A stretch of DNA of 64,000 nucleotides, taken from NCBI GenBank assembly GCA_965202585.1, contig OZ241832.1, forward strand, positions 62,806,001-62,870,000. Direction: 5' to 3'. Position 1 is the stretch's first letter, and each line of letters begins with the position of its first letter. Of this stretch, positions 3,001 through 63,000 are shown in pieces. A program made the position numbers. The stretch comes from Thalia democratica. Lineage: Eukaryota.

Positions 3001-6000
3001 ATAGTCATCAAGTTAATCACAATTATATTAATACAAAGGGACTTTGACAGTTGAGTAGTGACGAACGTTTTTAGTAGCTTCACATGACTCTTTTGACCAT
3101 TTATTTATATCAGAATCATAACATAGTATGACTTTTGAAATATTATAAAAATTCAATATTTTACCCCCAACTAAAGAAGATTCGCCTTCAAATGAAAAAA
3201 AACTTCGTCCTTGAAGTGTTACAAACATATTGCTAGTTTTATCAAAAACTTCACAATTAGCGTTTAAATCTGCACCACCAATGACAAACAATTTGCTTTT
3301 AACACAAACTAAACTATGATTAGCTCTCTCTTCAATCATACTTGGCATTGGTGTCCAAGTATCACCATATACATCATATGATTCTACTGTTTTTAAAACA
3401 TTTAAATCATCTCCACCACCTGAAACTACAATACTTTCTTCAAATATTGTACAAGCTGCACAAGATCTTTTTTCCTTCATTTTTGCAATTTGTTTCCATT
3501 TAAATAATTTTGCATCAAATTCAAGACTAGAATTAAAACAATCAGTTTCATTATCATCACCACCAAAAAGATAAATATTATCAACATAAGCACACGAACA
3601 AAAGTTTAGACGTTCATCAGGTATATCAGTTACTTTAATCCATGTATTAGTTACAGGTGAATATTTTTCAACTGATTTGATAGGACCTTGTTTATTAAAT
3701 CCACCAAAAACATATATTTCTCCTTTAAGGTATACTGATATTAAATAATACCGTTCTTCTAACATTGGAGGAAGATCCTTGTGTTTCTCAAAATTGTTCA
3801 CATCTAACACCTTTACTTGATTTATGGCTTTTTCTTCCTCATCATCTACACCTCCACAAATAAGAGTATTGAACATGTTTTGGTTACAGTGTCTACTTTT
3901 ATTATGAATAAACGGTAAACGGTACACATTCTGGTAATAACAATCTCTGTTTTTCAATACTTCAAGACAATCCTTATTCTTTGAAATACAAGAAGAAAAA
4001 CTTATGAGATGTTTTAAACACTGATCTGATAAAAGATTAAGACGAACTCTTAATAATAATTGTTTTGCGAATTTGCTACGTTCTTCTATCTTGTAACTCA
4101 ACCATTTATTTGATGTATTGTAAATTTCAACTTCTGAATCAATTTGTAAACTAGAACTTGCAAGTATTTTAAAGACAGTATTAAAATCTAACTCTAGAAA
4201 GCTTTCTTTTTCAACTATCATACTAAAACAACGTTCTATGTATCTAAAAACAGTTAAGTAAAGATCTGACAGGTTGAATTTTGAGGCTAGCTGATAAAAC
4301 AATACTGCATTTTGAATTTGTAGTTTTTCGTTTAGTTTTTCAACTGCTTTACTTATCGAATGTTCATTTAATGAATGTTTAGTTAATTTCATAGCTGATG
4401 TTAGTTCACAATGCTCTCGAGTCGACTCATTTCATCTGAAATTTTTTAACTCAAATTAATTCAGTTATAGTATATTTAGCTGTTGATAGGTGTTACCAAG
4501 TACATTACCTACATTATATGTAATTTTTAGCTAAAATTAAATAATTACTACTTGTTTATAAAAAATAACATTAATTAGTTAATGTAGAAGTTTTAAAAAT
4601 TTTGAAGTTTTGAAAAATTTTTTGTGTTTTTTATTATCCGTTTTTTTTATGTTTAAAATATTAAAATTGTATTATATTATAATTGAATAATTTTTTCTTA
4701 TTATGTTATACAAGTTACAAATGTCAATTTAAATAATAATATTTCTGCAAATCAAAAACATACAACACACATCTTTACAAAAAGATTCATTTCTAAGATA
4801 TCAGCAAACATTATCATTATGATTTTAAATATACATTTTTAACACTAACGTAAAAAAAACTACACCACAGTACTTGCATTATACTTTAAATACTAAAAAT
4901 ATAAAAATTGTTTATATAAATAGCAAAAGCATCTTAAAATGTGTTAGTATAACTTACTTTTTATCAAATTAATTAGTGTTATATATTTGAAGCATTTAAT
5001 TATAACATGTACTTAACAGATATTACATATCTAACACAATTTCTTAAAAAAAAACTTGAATAATTATGTTTTAAAACTAAATATTTGTTGACTAAACAAC
5101 GGATACAGTTAAAACAACAATTAAAATCTAATCTGCAATACTTTATTGTACTGTAAGAGTCAGTTAAGTAAGTATAAAAAGTATGCATTACACTAATTGA
5201 AATCAATTTTCAAAGTTCATTTCTATAAAAAGGTTAAATTAGATAAACATAACTGTTTTTCTCTTCAAAGTTATTAGTTGAACAATATGTACAGAATAAA
5301 GTTGTTACTTACACATAACACTGACTTACCCATCTTATTAAAGCCATCAGAAATTTGCAAAGTTTTACCTTGGAAACTAACTTCAGAATTTTCCTTGCAT
5401 AATTTTAGAAAACTATTACGTTTATCAACATTACAAGCGTTCAAATTTCCTTCACAATTCTTCACACCACTTCCGCTTAAACTGATTCTCGCAGACATGA
5501 CTTTAAAATTTTTATTATCCAGTATATTTTTACAGCTGTACTAAAAGTAATTTAACACTTTTAACAGTTAAAACTAATAAGTCAAAGTTTGAATATTTTT
5601 GAAATAAAAACCATTTGTAACTAACTGTTTTTTTATTTTATTAATACTATTTTCTTTTTAAAATACTTTAATACTAGTATTTAAAATATATTTAACGTCT
5701 AGTTATTAATATGATAATATTTAGGGTGTACGGTTAAGGTATAACTAAACTAACACTAACAATTATATTTAAATTTATTTTAGAACTAAATGATATTAAA
5801 AGTATTATTACCAATTGAAACAACTAGGCATGAACTTTGTTGGTTTTATTTATCTTATCTAACACTAAAAATATATCAAGAACATCATACTTTATATAAT
5901 ATTTTATATGTAGTCAAAACTTTTAAACAAGAATCAAATTTAACAGGAATAAACTTTAAGAAGGGACAATTATCTACTTGGAATTCAAATCAAAACATTA

Positions 6001-60000: not shown

Positions 60001-63000
60001 TGGTGATAATAACAACACAAATTGTGAAGTTTTTGACAAAACTAGCAATGTGTTTGTTACACTTGAAACACCTGAATTTTGGTCATATGGGGTGAAAGCC
60101 ATTTCATTTAGAATTAAAATATTTGTCTTTTTAAATTTTACTCAAAAAGTTTTATGTTATGATGTTGTTAAAGATGAATGGTCAAAAGAATCATGTATAG
60201 TTACTGAAAATATTTCAGATTATTCAGCTGTCAAAATACCTTTATTTTAAAAAACATAGCATGAACTAGATGTTTCTTTTTTTGATGAGGTATTAAACTT
60301 TGAGTAAGCTAACTTAAACAACTAATTATTATTATTGTTTAAGTTTAAGCAGTTATTTCGTTTTTCAGTCTCTTTATACTTGTTAAGTGCTAAACTTGTT
60401 TTTTTAATTAGTACTAAAGATAATTGAAAAAAATTTAACGATGATTTTTAACATCAAAACAAGCAATTTCCTTAAATAAAATTTAAACTAACCGATTTAA
60501 ATACGTTTTGTGTTTATTAATAACAATTTAGCTACCGTTAAAAATTTTTTATATCACTTTTTGTTTGTAAACTTTATATATATTTAAAAGCTTTAATAGT
60601 TTCATAAATTTATAAACTTATACTTATACTTATTAAACGTTTTGACTGAATAGAAATTTCATGAAATAATAGTAAAGAATTTATTTTATGAATGTTTTTT
60701 ATGGTGTATAGTTTTCGAACATAAAACATTCGTATAAAGTTAATAAACCTACTAAAGTTATTGTGTTTCTACTTAATATGAAAATTATTTGACTTCTTAC
60801 TTTCTTAGTTCAATAAATCTGTATAACCTATATAAAGAAATTTGTTACAGTGTAAAAGACGTTAAAAGGTATCTGTGGTGTGCGACTAGATAACCGAAAG
60901 GTTTTTTTATGCAACAGGTCCTATTTATCTTTTTTTTACGTCAGCGACTTTTTTTCGTGAAATAAACTATACATGACGTAAACAAGATGTTAAAAAATGA
61001 TATACTTTTCAGAGTTGATAAAATTTTACTATTCCGATCTGATAAAATTTTAAATATTACTGAAATGCTTACTGCATTTACTAGCTCTATTTACAAAAAC
61101 TCGTAAGCACTTTAAATATTTATAAAAGTTTTAACTATTTAAAAACCTTAAGCATTTTTTTGTTATCAAGTATTTAAAGTATCTATTTTATATATGATTA
61201 CTTTTACACGTAAAAAGCTAATAGTTATGACATTTAATTAATTTCAGTACGAAAATACTATTTGCAAGTATTATTTTAATTATTTTTATATTAAAAAGCA
61301 CGTTTTATTCTAAACAAAATCAAAATAATTTTAAATTAAAATAACCACAACTTTCTATTAAGTAAAAAAAGAAGTTAAAACGTGTGCTTAACATTAGTAA
61401 TTAATAATTTTTTTACTTATAATTATACTAAAAGAATCAAAGTTGATAATAAGAATTGTTAGATTTGATCTAGAAAAGATAAGGATCTTGATCTAGAAAA
61501 TTTTAAATAATGTTATGTTTTTTAGGTAATAATTTGTATAATTTGGATTTTTTTTCTTAAAAAAAAAGTTACTGTAATCAATTTCATGTTACGAATTAAA
61601 AATCAGCATTTAATAAGAGCTATTAAATAGCTATATAAAAAAGACAAAATTGAAAATATTTCACAATTTTTAAAAGCAAATTAAAAATCAGATTGAAAAG
61701 TAAAAGTACTTATTTCGTTATACGATTGGGACATTGAAAAGGATACTTAAATTTTGCAGTAATTATTTAAACAGTCTTGTATAACTAATTTTAAAAAATT
61801 TTTGAAAATATTGTAACATATACAAATGTATCTACAAAAAAAAAGTGTTTGTTTAAAACTCTAAACTAAAATTTAAACAGTAGTTATATTATTATTCATC
61901 CTATAAATAAAAACAAATTGTTCAGTAATCTTCTTTTGTTGTACAACATATGTTTCTGTGTGTTAATGAATCAAGACACTTTAACTGGGTTCTGTAAAAA
62001 ATTATTACTGTAATGAAAGAATAGAAGCATAGAATAATATGGGTGTATACATGTTTTTTATCAAAATAAAATAATTTCTACAAATAATAGTTGATAATAG
62101 GTAAAATATTTAATATTAAATCCGACTGTTATAAAACTATTTAATATTTGTAATTATTAAGTCTTAAACAAGTAAAGTAAACTAAAATACACAACAAAAC
62201 AATAAATCATAATATAAACAAAGCACTCACGTTAATGGGAAAGATAACTGATTCAAATTTACTGTTGTTAAGCAATGAAGGAAATACATTCTTTACATTT
62301 AATAATTACGTCACAATATAAATGAGGTTGTTTCAACTGTTTAATTTGTATTGCAAAGTTTGTCAATTTAGTTTTTATGTTTGTAATCTATTTGAACAAA
62401 ATAAAACATCAACCATTAGTTAAAGAATTAATAAAATTTAATAAAACTTAACAACGGCGAAGACAATAAAAGTCACAAAAACTCAATGTAACATGTTTTT
62501 ATATATTAAATGCTTGTAAAGGTTAAATCAAAGTTATGTACAATTAGGAAGCAGATTTAGTTTAAATGTAAAACTAAAACATTAAAAAGTTAAAATTTAA
62601 GAAATCAAAACACAAAAAAAAACAAACTTGTTATTGACTTACAAACTACTGACCGATAATTAAGTTGCAGCGACATAAATAAAATCACAATGACTAAAAA
62701 TTACATATAAACTGTGTTTAATAATTATAAAAATATAAAAAAATAATTGGTTGATAAAGTAGCAGTCGGGTGTTTAAATTAAATGTCTCATATAGATATT
62801 TTAAATATTTAATAAGTAAACATGTGTTATATATGAAAGTTAAAATGTAAAATAACAAGGTGGTTATACAGTAACCTCTCGCTTATTTACGCACATTGTG
62901 TCCACAGAAAAAGTGCGTAAAGATATGAGAGATCGTAAAGATACGAGAGGTATCAAATATACTTACTATAATGGCTGTTTTTTTATATTGCTTCTAGTTA

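What the first reader, a model, noticed from the sequence alone, without database searches (positions are those of the whole stretch)
3028..60250. Expanded kelch-like family that appears to keep only the C-terminal half of the BTB domain
Seen: five paralogues with the same two-exon, phase-1 layout. Established: KLHL proteins are BTB-BACK-Kelch; BTB dimerises and, with the 3-box, binds CUL3. By eye, exon 1 plus the first residues of exon 2 match the second half of BTB: LNISYVD..SFLNFCK..EVNF..KNLQ and KIKLEEIS...IF.NFL.FC resemble I.L..(V/I).....F..LL.F.YTG.I.I...NV, and SNKLDV....RCEII resembles A..LQ...L...C..F. The canonical YTG is replaced, and I found no N-terminal half (AHR.VL...S.YF) in the window. 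Inference: CUL3-uncoupled or monomeric decoy adaptors, or a re-purposed N-terminal module.
Basis: partly seen in the sequence, partly recalled or inferred. Interest (0 to 1): 0.65.

Follow-up and report, generated by a model that had tools for sequence, protein, structure and literature searches.

The report
Kelch gene family missing most BTB
Five clustered copies (two intact) of a fast-evolving kelch-like gene keep the BACK and Kelch parts but only the last two helices of the BTB domain, behind a family-specific first exon that does not resemble BTB, so they probably cannot pair up or dock on cullin-3 in the usual way.

Summary
The five two-exon, phase-1 paralogues are real, but only two (g2, g4) are intact. 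g1 has a 5-nt insertion at the start of exon 2; g3 and g5 are pseudogenes.

Exon 2 encodes BACK plus a six-bladed Kelch propeller (Pfam; AlphaFold2 mean pLDDT 91.5).

No BTB N-terminal half was found in the window:
- Pfam on 547 ORFs gave no BTB hit.
- A motif scan and tblastn with a canonical BTB gave nothing significant.

The first ~33 residues of exon 2 form two helices. From residue 15 they align by hhalign with the last ~18 residues of the BTB (end of A4, plus A5) of a canonical BTB-BACK-Kelch protein. In KLHL11 these helices pack on the 3-box.

Exon 1 shows no BTB similarity:
- Pfam: 0 of 31 homologues.
- PDB profile search: no BTB chain.
- hhalign: probability 0.08%.

It still looks coding: it is open in all five copies, always phase 1, and has a conserved F-x3-C-K...F motif.

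Verdict: a lineage-specific, birth-and-death family of KLHL-derived proteins without a BTB core. I infer they are monomeric and lack the canonical CUL3 interface. The spliced proteins were not assembled or folded.

The parts
5330..5498 (-). g1 exon 1 (169 nt, phase 1, ATG at 5498, donor GTAAGT follows)
3028..4435 (-). g1 exon 2 (BACK + Kelch). The ORF 3028-4431 is open, but a 5-nt insertion just after the homologous acceptor breaks the exon 1/exon 2 frame.
22418..22467 (+). Conserved 50 nt upstream of the g2 start codon. It is 70-82% identical among g1, g2, g3 and g5, at least as conserved as exon 1. It is TATA-like and probably a core promoter or 5' UTR.
22468..22651 (+). g2 exon 1 (184 nt, 61 codons + 1 nt). 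Family-specific N-terminal peptide with nearly invariant F35, C39, K40 and F47. No BTB similarity.
22652..23402 (+). g2 intron (GTAAGT...TTTCAG). No BTB-like ORF.
23403..24820 (+). g2 exon 2, intact (stop included)
23408..23503 (+). BTB remnant in g2: two helices (residues 2-17 and 22-33 of the exon-2 translation). hhalign covers residues 15-32 (end of A4, plus A5); assigning helix 2-17 to A4 rests on the model and on reading by eye. A4/A5 correspond to alpha5/alpha6 of KLHL11.
   Evidence: PMC3597819 passages
23534..23827 (+). BACK domain of g2 (Pfam PF07707, E 5.7e-19)
23930..24817 (+). Six-bladed Kelch propeller of g2 (24 strands in the model)
37921..38104 (+). g3 exon 1 (open, phase 1)
38995..40390 (+). 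g3 exon 2, pseudogene. The acceptor CAG has become CGG, there is a stop at the second codon, one frameshift near 39600, and in-frame stops at 39812-39814 and 40028-40030.
48932..49109 (-). g4 exon 1 (178 nt, phase 1). Divergent: it shares only the F..FCK core and the final NK with the others.
46445..47835 (-). g4 exon 2, intact (BACK + Kelch)
57795..57978 (+). g5 exon 1 (open, phase 1)
58857..60250 (+). g5 exon 2, pseudogene. The acceptor is in frame, but there are at least 3 frameshifts (ORF pieces lie in frames 2, 1, 0, 2).

Best explanation
The window holds a cluster of a lineage-specific, rapidly turning-over family derived from BTB-BACK-Kelch (KLHL-type) genes.

Shown:
- The protein starts with a family-specific peptide of about 60 residues (exon 1), predicted helical, with a conserved core D-E-x-K-S-F-L-K-F-C-K-Q-x-S-E-V-x-F.
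- Exon 2 then supplies two helices placed where the BTB A4/A5 helices sit, the 3-box/BACK helices and a six-bladed Kelch propeller.
- The BTB core (B1-B2-A1-A2-B3-A3) was not detected anywhere in the window.

Inferred:
- In KLHL11 the two helices equivalent to A4/A5 (alpha5/alpha6) pack with the 3-box helices in a four-helix bundle. I infer that the cut lies at a natural folding boundary and that the two helices survive as part of the BACK-side unit.
- Without the BTB core the proteins cannot make the domain-swapped BTB dimer or the main interface with the cullin repeat. They most likely act as monomeric Kelch substrate binders uncoupled from canonical CRL3, either as competitors for substrates or as adaptors for another partner bound by exon 1.
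- At most they could keep the groove that holds the CUL3 N-terminal extension.
- The cluster evolves by birth and death: 2 copies intact and 3 damaged.
For: Domain content.
- BACK (E 1e-15 to 4e-20) and Kelch in all five exon-2 ORFs. No BTB at E<=1 in exon 2 or in the four exon-1 ORFs of g1, g2, g3 and g5.
- AF2 model of g2 exon 2: mean pLDDT 91.5, helices 2-17 and 22-33 (block means 58-76) before the BACK helices, and 24 strands making six blades. Foldseek matches Kelch propellers and full-length KBTBD2.

The BTB remnant.
- hhalign of the family alignment (123 sequences) against the canonical BTB-BACK-Kelch protein P0156: probability 99.7%. The alignment starts at exon-2 residue 15, which matches P0156 residue 124, inside its Pfam BTB (37-141).
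- KLHL22 8khp_A: profile positions 21-384 match chain 140-503. KEAP1 6wcq_C aligns from query 46, matching chain 184.
- The role of alpha5/alpha6, the 3-box, the dimer and the CUL3 contacts are taken from passages of PMC3597819. The element names come from passages of PMC1257465.

No BTB core.
- (547 ORFs, 0 BTB hits).
- None of the 120 listed homologues carries PF00651.

Exon 1 is coding but not BTB.
- It is open in 5 of 5 copies, against a 0.74% chance for 61 codons in the window's non-genic DNA.
- Three different lengths are all phase 1.
- 25 further short ORFs match the exon-1 profile, and most start at the same Met. The only long hit (P0146, 662 aa) is a repetitive protein matching 11 profile positions.
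- dN/dS is 0.32-0.76 in 5 of 6 pairs.
- No BTB signal.

Turnover.
- dN/dS is about 0.5 over exon 2.
- g1 and g2 are sisters. g4 sits with P0010 and P0016 inside an 18-member clade of 116 sequences.
- The damage in g1, g3 and g5 is shown.
Against: - No transcript evidence was available, so the splice and the start codon are models.
- A Met at exon-2 residue 2 is the commonest residue there (25 of 48). It is still M in 7 of the 30 ORFs that extend upstream. Translation could therefore start there in some members.
- The first 14 residues of exon 2 are not covered by the hhalign alignment. Helix 2-17 as A4 rests on the AF2 helix and on reading by eye.
- The N-terminal helices have only moderate pLDDT (block means 58-76).
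- One exon-1 pair (g1/g5) has dN/dS 3.46.
- g4's exon 1 is not found by tblastn with the other exon 1s.
- All functional statements (monomer, no CUL3) are inference from what is missing. Nothing was tested.
- The exon-1 BTB tests are profile-versus-sequence, or use a thin canonical profile of two near-identical proteins. A very degenerate A3 remnant cannot be excluded.
Confidence: 0.6

Rival explanations
1. Exon 1 is the B3-A3 part of the BTB and the start of exon 2 is A4-A5, so the proteins keep the whole C-terminal half of the BTB.
For: - By eye, the exon-1 core S-F-L-K-F-C-K resembles the F..LL.F.Y stretch of A3, and g4 has IKLEEIS.P...F..FL.FC.
- The position is right: exon 1 lies immediately N-terminal to the A4/A5 remnant.
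- AF2 predicts a helix over the motif, with block-mean pLDDT about 85 at residues 31-50.
Against: - Pfam BTB hits: 0 of 31 exon-1 homologues at E<=10.
- The exon-1 profile finds no BTB chain in PDB at E<=10. It finds only SVBP, at E 0.34-1.1.
- hhalign against P0156: probability 0.08%, 5 columns, outside the BTB.
- The Atlas gives no usable hit.
- From P0156 and g2 read side by side, the spacing from the motif to A4 is about 13 residues longer than in the canonical protein.
- The AF2 model has no strand where B3 would be.
Confidence: 0.1
2. The genes are ordinary BTB-BACK-Kelch genes whose BTB-coding exon(s) were missed. These would be small exons, or exons that replace exon 1 in the real transcripts.
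For: - No transcript data were available.
- An ACAG or TTTTAG lies about 40 nt upstream of the ATG in g1, g2, g3 and g5. The frame is open from there to the ATG in g1, g2 and g5.
- Exons under 20-30 aa were not scanned.
Against: - 0 BTB hits in 547 ORFs across upstream regions, introns and the rest of the window.
- 0 motif hits. tblastn best E 0.76.
- g1/g2 and g4/g5 are head to head, so their whole upstream regions lie inside the window.
- Most of the 25 further exon-1 ORFs start at the same Met.
- The 50 nt before the ATG are as conserved as the exons and are TATA-like.
- None of the 120 listed homologues has BTB.
Confidence: 0.07
3. Exon 1 is a non-coding leader exon. Translation starts at the conserved Met at the second or third codon of exon 2, giving a protein of A4/A5-BACK-Kelch only.
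For: - M is the commonest residue at exon-2 position 2 (25 of 48). It is present in g1, g2, g4 and g5.
- Many distant family ORFs begin there (18 start at that position).
- The exon-1 profile found only 25 relatives, against 169 for exon 2.
Against: - Exon 1 is open in 5 of 5 copies (chance 0.74% each).
- Its length differences are multiples of 3, and the phase always fits exon 2.
- The ATG is conserved in 30 of 31 sequences, and a motif is nearly invariant.
- dN/dS is below 1 in 5 of 6 pairs.
- ORF starts in the database are gene-caller choices and are biased towards any ATG.
Confidence: 0.12
4. The whole cluster is decaying. Even g2 and g4 are unconstrained relics of a partial (5'-truncated) duplication and have no function.
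For: - 3 of 5 copies are damaged.
- dN/dS is about 0.5, which is high.
- No expression data.
Against: - g2 and g4 keep ORFs of 471 and 462 codons in exon 2, in DNA where 61 open codons occur 0.74% of the time.
- dN/dS is clearly below 1 in the pre-BACK, BACK and Kelch parts (0.34-0.60).
- BACK is the best conserved part (entropy 0.94).
- 169 homologues with long open ORFs exist.
Confidence: 0.08

Closest known systems
KLHL / BTB-BACK-Kelch (BBK) substrate adaptors of CUL3 (KEAP1, KLHL22, KLHL11, KBTBD2)
   Same: BACK domain and six-bladed Kelch propeller. The A4/A5 (alpha5/alpha6) helices precede the 3-box. The family profile aligns to KLHL22 from chain residue 140 onwards and to KEAP1 from residue 184.
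   Different: The BTB core (B1-A3), which makes the dimer and the main CUL3 interface, is absent. About 60 unrelated residues from a separate first exon stand in its place.
P0156 / P0159 (unnamed canonical BTB-BACK-Kelch proteins of 604 and 660 aa; the only BTB-bearing relatives among the 23 long hits)
   Same: hhalign probability 99.7% over 419 columns, from the end of the BTB through BACK and Kelch. 23% identity.
   Different: They carry a full Pfam BTB (37-141 and 77-181), including HRNVLAASSPYF. The window's genes do not.
Human KLHDC7A (Kelch protein with a predicted BACK but no BTB)
   Same: A BACK-plus-Kelch architecture without a BTB is described for it (PMC12035522, passages seen).
   Different: It is a single-copy vertebrate gene with a long, unrelated N-terminal region. 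No relationship to this family was tested here. Its function is unknown according to the same passages.
Poxvirus kelch-like proteins, including short forms
   Same: The best viral structural matches are poxvirus BTB-Kelch proteins. Several listed entries are short Kelch-only forms of 217-290 aa. This shows that truncated members occur in expanded, fast-evolving kelch families.
   Different: Those are viral, intronless and only 14-22% identical. The short forms were not examined for which part they lack.

Membership tests
BTB/POZ domain (Pfam PF00651; core fold B1-B2-A1-A2-B3-A3-A4-A5 of Stogios 2005) | Match to the Pfam BTB profile | tested here: not met
   No BTB at E<=1 in 5 exon-2 ORFs and 4 exon-1 ORFs. 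0 of 31 exon-1 homologues at E<=10. None of the 120 listed homologues has PF00651.
BTB/POZ domain (Pfam PF00651; core fold B1-B2-A1-A2-B3-A3-A4-A5 of Stogios 2005) | B1/B2/A1/A2/B3 segment (with the H-R-x-V-L...S-x-Y-F stretch) | tested here: not met
   0 BTB hits in 547 ORFs. 0 motif matches, with positive controls. tblastn best E 0.76.
BTB/POZ domain (Pfam PF00651; core fold B1-B2-A1-A2-B3-A3-A4-A5 of Stogios 2005) | A3 hairpin | tested here: not met
   Exon 1 is the only candidate. hhalign against P0156 gave probability 0.08%, and no BTB chain in PDB matched. The canonical profile used was thin.
BTB/POZ domain (Pfam PF00651; core fold B1-B2-A1-A2-B3-A3-A4-A5 of Stogios 2005) | A4/A5 helices | tested here: met
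   hhalign aligns exon-2 residues 15-32 with P0156 residues 124-141, the end of its BTB. The AF2 model has helices 2-17 and 22-33.
BTB/POZ domain (Pfam PF00651; core fold B1-B2-A1-A2-B3-A3-A4-A5 of Stogios 2005) | Homodimerisation and CUL3 binding | not testable with these tools
   Complex prediction was never available. No CUL3 sequence was at hand.
KLHL / BTB-BACK-Kelch | BACK domain | tested here: met
   PF07707 at E 4.1e-20 (g1), 5.7e-19 (g2) and 4e-19 (g4). It is also present in the g3 and g5 pieces.
KLHL / BTB-BACK-Kelch | Five to six Kelch repeats forming a propeller | tested here: met
   Kelch_1 at E 1e-26 to 2e-37. 24 strands making six blades. TM-score normalised to target about 0.9 to Kelch domains.
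KLHL / BTB-BACK-Kelch | N-terminal BTB domain | tested here: not met
   See the BTB rows above. Only A4/A5 remain.
KLHDC (Kelch proteins without BTB or BACK, as defined in PMC12035522) | Absence of both BTB and BACK | tested here: not met
   BACK is present. The definition is taken from passages seen.
BC-box (Elongin C-binding) substrate receptors | Consensus (S,T,P)-L-x-x-x-(C,S,A)-x-x-x-hydrophobic (as quoted in PMC12035522) | tested here: not met
   Exon-1 columns: S34 in 19 of 31; F35 in 29 of 31 (never L); C39 in 29 of 31; S43 in 25 of 30 where a hydrophobic residue is required. That is 2 of 4 positions. No SOCS/VHL-type Pfam hit in 31 members.

The most novel reading that the evidence does not exclude
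Exon 1 is a newly recruited docking module that replaced the BTB core. Its amphipathic helix carries the nearly invariant F35-x3-C39-K40...F47 motif. It might bind a different adaptor or ligase: the motif is reminiscent of a BC-box but does not match the consensus. Alternatively it might cap the surface exposed on A4/A5. Under the first option, a whole expanded set of Kelch substrate receptors would have been rewired away from CUL3 in this lineage.
Probability: 0.07. Interest if true: 0.7.

Novelty: new variant of a known kind. Interest (0 to 1): 0.35.

Why it matters
BTB-BACK-Kelch proteins are the largest class of CUL3 substrate adaptors. Their function depends on BTB-mediated dimerisation and cullin docking. 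An expanded family with at least 169 detectable relatives removes the BTB core but keeps the four-helix 3-box unit, the BACK domain and a diversifying Kelch face.

This is a natural experiment. It asks what a Kelch receptor does without CUL3 coupling (decoy, stabiliser, or adaptor for something else), and where the BTB/BACK folding boundary lies.

The finding is a lineage-specific variant rather than a new kind of system. No function has been shown, and the organism is unknown.

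Tried and rejected
- Complex prediction. The plan was to co-fold exon 1 and exon-2 residues 1-175 as two separate chains, to see whether exon 1 packs on A4/A5. The queue was full each time, and the tool was finally declared unavailable. Nothing was folded.
The organism stays unknown.
- Rfam and tRNA scans of the window found nothing.
- The Atlas search with exon 1 gave no usable hit.
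- The SVBP match of the exon-1 profile (E 0.34-1.1) rests on F-x-x-F-C-K-Q and is taken as chance.
- The BC-box reading was tested against the consensus and not met.
- tblastn hits of the canonical BTB in the window (E 0.76 to above 10) are noise. One of them (E 23) is a read-through into the g2 intron.
- AF2 of exon 1 alone gives a single long helix. This cannot show a fold on its own, and I did not search with it.
- Five literature searches found no description of an expanded BACK-Kelch family with a truncated BTB and a novel first exon. Only listings and abstracts were seen for most papers.
- The closed collections (metagenome contigs, viral contigs) were not searched. The genome-contig scan (bacteria and archaea only) was not used.

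Full report
THE WINDOW AND THE COPIES

The window is 64 kb with 20-32% G+C. It has no N and no Rfam or tRNA hit.

Stop-to-stop ORFs under the standard code show five related genes. tblastn with the g2 exon-2 translation finds exactly five copies of exon 2. tblastn with the exon-1 peptides finds one exon 1 per gene and no orphans.

I call them g1 (minus strand, 3028-5498), g2 (plus, 22468-24820), g3 (plus, 37921-40390), g4 (minus, 46445-49109) and g5 (plus, 57795-60250).

g1/g2 and g4/g5 lie head to head. Their entire upstream regions are therefore inside the window.

No other ORF in the window has a Pfam match above a curated cut-off.

GENE STRUCTURE

Exon 1 begins with ATG and ends before GTAAGT in all five copies. 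It is 169 nt in g1, 184 nt in g2, g3 and g5, and 178 nt in g4. The g4 ATG was read as 49109. Three different lengths therefore all give phase 1.

The acceptor TTTCAG is present in g1, g2, g4 and g5. In g2, g4 and g5 it continues the frame: D-V-M-N-R-E-R-C-E..., G-K-M-K-N-D..., D-E-M-N-R-E-H-C-E....

Only these two are intact:
- g1 has a 5-nt insertion a few bases after the acceptor. This puts exon 1 out of frame with the otherwise open 467-codon ORF. An AG 20 nt downstream would restore the frame, but this is only a possibility.
- g3 has CGG in place of the acceptor CAG and a stop at the second codon. It also has a frameshift near 39600 and two further in-frame stops.
- g5's exon 2 falls into pieces in frames 2, 1, 0 and 2.

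All searches were done exon by exon, and the joined step is left out.

WHAT EXON 2 ENCODES

Pfam finds BACK (E 4e-20 to 1e-15) in all five copies. It finds Kelch repeats in the three long ORFs. It finds no BTB at E<=1.

An AlphaFold2 model of the g2 exon-2 translation, built with a 123-sequence family alignment (A3), has mean pLDDT 91.5. It shows 24 strands, which is six blades. Two N-terminal helices (residues 2-17 and 22-33, block means 58-76) stand in front of the BACK helices.

Foldseek returns Kelch domains with a target-normalised TM-score of about 0.9. It also returns full-length KBTBD2 over 477 columns. The viral library returns poxvirus kelch-like proteins.

IS THE N-TERMINAL HALF OF THE BTB ANYWHERE IN THE WINDOW?

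No.

- Pfam scans gave 0 BTB hits in 363 ORFs >=30 aa. These covered both strands between g1 and g2, both strands between g4 and g5, and the plus strand upstream of g3 (E<=0.5).
- Pfam gave 0 BTB hits in 56 ORFs >=20 aa on the gene strand inside the five introns (E<=0.5).
- Pfam gave 0 BTB hits in 128 ORFs >=36 aa in the rest of the window (E<=0.01).
- Three patterns for the HR.VL..S.YF stretch have no match in the six-frame translation. All three match the canonical proteins P0156 and P0159.
- tblastn with the first 150 residues of those canonical proteins gives a best E of 0.76.

Limits: exons shorter than the ORF cut-offs, and very divergent sequence, would be missed.

WHAT REMAINS OF THE BTB

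phmmer aligns g2 with KEAP1 (6wcq_C) only from the QQLDPSN stretch on, with query 46 matching chain 184. The family profile aligns with KLHL22 (8khp_A) at profile positions 21-384, matching chain 140-503.

I then searched with a 302-residue piece of exon 2 among proteins of 530 aa or more. This length cut excludes the family's own ORFs. The search gave 23 hits, and only two of them were BTB-BACK-Kelch proteins: P0156 and P0159.

Pfam places the BTB of P0156 at residues 37-141 and its BACK at 149-249.

hhalign of A3 against P0156 gives probability 99.7% over 419 columns. The alignment begins at exon-2 residue 15: LTKHSLNERLISKAFENFNEKLQIQN against ADYLMLSRL-KNLAESYFLEDLNFDN (P0156 residues 124-149).

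The last 18 or so residues of the canonical BTB are therefore homologous to exon-2 residues 15-32. Helix 2-17 lies where A4 should be. By eye, EIISAIKL stands against DLIIAADYL. That last point is my reading and not a score.

In the nomenclature of Stogios et al. 2005, these are the A4/A5 segment. A3 links that segment to the B1/B2/A1/A2/B3 part (PMC1257465, passages).

For KLHL11, Canning et al. 2013 (PMC3597819, abstract and passages) report the following:
- The groove for the CUL3 N-terminal extension is flanked by alpha5/alpha6 and alpha9/alpha10.
- The dimer is made by a beta1-beta5' domain swap.
- CUL3 H2/H5 pack on the BTB (the alpha3-beta4 loop) and on the 3-box.

I equate A4/A5 with alpha5/alpha6. 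On that basis I infer that the family is cut at the boundary that leaves the four-helix unit whole. It removes the parts needed for the dimer and for the main cullin interface.

EXON 1

The five exon-1 peptides align (A1). A profile of them was searched against 1.84 billion representatives. It found 27 proteins at E<=0.001.

Of these, 26 are short ORFs of 45-110 aa. One of them, P0121, was itself in the query alignment, so 25 are new. The remaining hit is a repetitive 662-aa protein that matches only 11 profile positions.

Twenty-one of the 26 align from their first residue, that is, from the same Met. Most read through the donor as G-K-S (G|GTAAGTC). They are therefore gene-caller ORFs on unspliced DNA. 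No long protein holds exon 1 joined to anything.

In the 31-sequence alignment A2 the nearly invariant residues are:
- M1 (30 of 31)
- F35 (29 of 31)
- C39 (29 of 31)
- K40 (28 of 31)
- F47 (29 of 31)

The consensus core is D-E-x-K-S-F-L-K-F-C-K-Q-x-S-E-V-x-F-Q-x-K-N-L-Q.

Evidence that exon 1 is coding:
- It is open in 5 of 5 window copies, including the dead ones. A 61-codon stretch is stop-free at only 0.74% of positions in the window's non-genic DNA.
- Length differences are multiples of three.
- dN/dS is 0.32-0.76 in five of six pairs. The sixth pair, g1/g5, gives 3.46 on about 31 synonymous sites.

Evidence on BTB likeness is all negative:
- Pfam per member at E<=10: 0 of 31 hit BTB.
- The A2 profile against PDB sequences at E<=10 hits only small vasohibin-binding protein (E 0.34-1.1), through F-x-x-F-C-K-Q.
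- hhalign of A2 against P0156: probability 0.08%, five columns, outside the BTB.
- The Atlas search gives no usable hit and low recognition.
- AF2 of exon 1 alone gives one helix over residues 8-60. Mean pLDDT is 70.8, with block means of about 85 at residues 31-50. There is no strand where B3 would be.
- From P0156 and g2 read side by side, mapping the F..FCK motif onto A3 would need about 13 extra residues before A4.

These tests are profile-versus-sequence or use a thin canonical profile. A very degenerate remnant cannot be excluded.

THE FAMILY AND ITS TEMPO

The exon-2 search found 169 relatives, of which 120 were listed. The best is 65% identical. All come from unnamed "ena" records, and none has a precomputed BTB.

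In a FastTree of 116 sequences, 7 of the 123 rows were dropped for covering less than 70% of the kept columns. g1 and g2 are sisters (support 0.94). g4 groups with P0010 and P0016. All three sit in an 18-member clade.

g1, g2, g3 and g5 align over the whole unit, from a few hundred bases upstream of the ATG to the stop, at 71-76% identity. g4 aligns only from BACK onwards.

Identity by region:
| Region | Identity |
|---|---|
| 50 nt before the ATG | 70-82% |
| Exon 1 | 68-78% |
| Intron | 25-69% |
| Pre-BACK part | 79-85% |
| BACK | 82-91% |
| Remainder of exon 2 (mostly Kelch) | 73-77% |

dN/dS over exon 2 is 0.50-0.55. Kelch loops are the most variable part, with entropy 1.48 against 0.94 in BACK.

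With two intact and three damaged copies in 57 kb, this is a birth-and-death family.

AN OPEN POINT

At exon-2 residue 2, Met is the commonest residue (25 of 48 sequences with a residue there). It is Met in 7 of the 30 ORFs that extend further upstream. It is also present in g1, g2, g4 and g5.

This may be an old or alternative start codon. If the wider family starts there, then exon 1 is an addition of one clade and cannot be inherited BTB. Database ORF starts are gene-caller choices, so this is a lead and not a result.

MECHANISM

Shown: the architecture. It is a family-specific N-terminal exon, then two helices at the A4/A5 position, then the 3-box/BACK helices, then a six-blade Kelch propeller.

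Inferred from KLHL11:
- There is no BTB dimer and no main CUL3 interface. The proteins are therefore monomeric Kelch binders uncoupled from canonical CRL3.
- They could compete with full adaptors for substrates, or work through whatever binds exon 1.
- The groove for the CUL3 N-terminal extension could survive, because all the helices flanking it are kept.

The exon-1 motif recalls a BC-box. It fails the consensus (S,T,P)LXXX(C,S,A)XXX-hydrophobic quoted in PMC12035522 (passages) at two of four positions.

NOVELTY

BACK-plus-Kelch without BTB has a precedent in human KLHDC7A (PMC12035522, passages). Short kelch forms occur in poxviruses.

Five full-text searches (listings and abstracts) turned up no expanded family with a BTB cut down to A4/A5 and a new first exon.

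I rate it a new variant of a known kind, with interest 0.35. The closed collections were not searched.

Noticed in passing
window 4405-4435 (minus strand): g1 carries a 5-nt insertion (a TCGA/CTCGA duplication) just after the conserved acceptor. It puts exon 1 out of frame with an otherwise open 467-codon exon 2. An AG 20 nt downstream would restore the frame.
   Followed up: partly
window 23408-23410 (g2), and the same place in g1, g4 and g5: A Met at the second or third codon of exon 2 is the commonest residue at that position across the family (25 of 48; 7 of 30 where the ORF extends upstream). It may be an ancestral or alternative start codon.
   Followed up: partly
window 22418-22467, 5499-5548, 37871-37920, 57745-57794: The 50 nt before the exon-1 ATG are 70-82% identical among g1, g2, g3 and g5, at least as conserved as exon 1. 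They hold a TATA-like TGTA(T/A/G)AAATATA about 35 nt before the ATG and an ACAG or TTTTAG just upstream of it. This could be a promoter or a (trans-)splice acceptor.
   Followed up: no
window 5500-12000; also 16500-22400, 31900-32100, 37260-37760, 54850-57700: The regions upstream of g1, g2, g3 and g5 are built of repeated segments of 0.1-0.6 kb (self-match depth 3-6). These are stacked several times upstream of g1. No ORF in them has a Pfam match.
   Followed up: partly
window 17826-18008 and 19360-19489; similar CCGGATCCG-rich stretches at about 47950-48500 in the g4 intron: A 41-42-nt tandem repeat has a G+C-rich core (TCCGGCCGGAACCGGATCCGGAC) and a T-run, inside otherwise 24% G+C DNA. The resemblance of the g4 intron stretch was seen by eye only.
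   Followed up: no
window 40813-41510: A 327-nt unit is repeated 2.1 times at 97% identity. It lies in the G+C-richest 2-kb bin of the window (32% G+C), just downstream of g3. It has no Rfam or Pfam match.
   Followed up: no
P0138, P0142, P0143 (exon-1 homologues from the library): Three divergent exon-1 ORFs share an in-frame upstream extension of 11-12 residues (M-N-x-N-x-S-K-H-...) before the usual M-S-A/V. A subgroup may start translation further upstream.
   Followed up: no
window 48932-49109 (g4 exon 1): g4's exon 1 is so divergent that tblastn with the other four exon 1s does not find it. Only the F..FCK core, the final NK, the phase and the donor are shared.
   Followed up: partly
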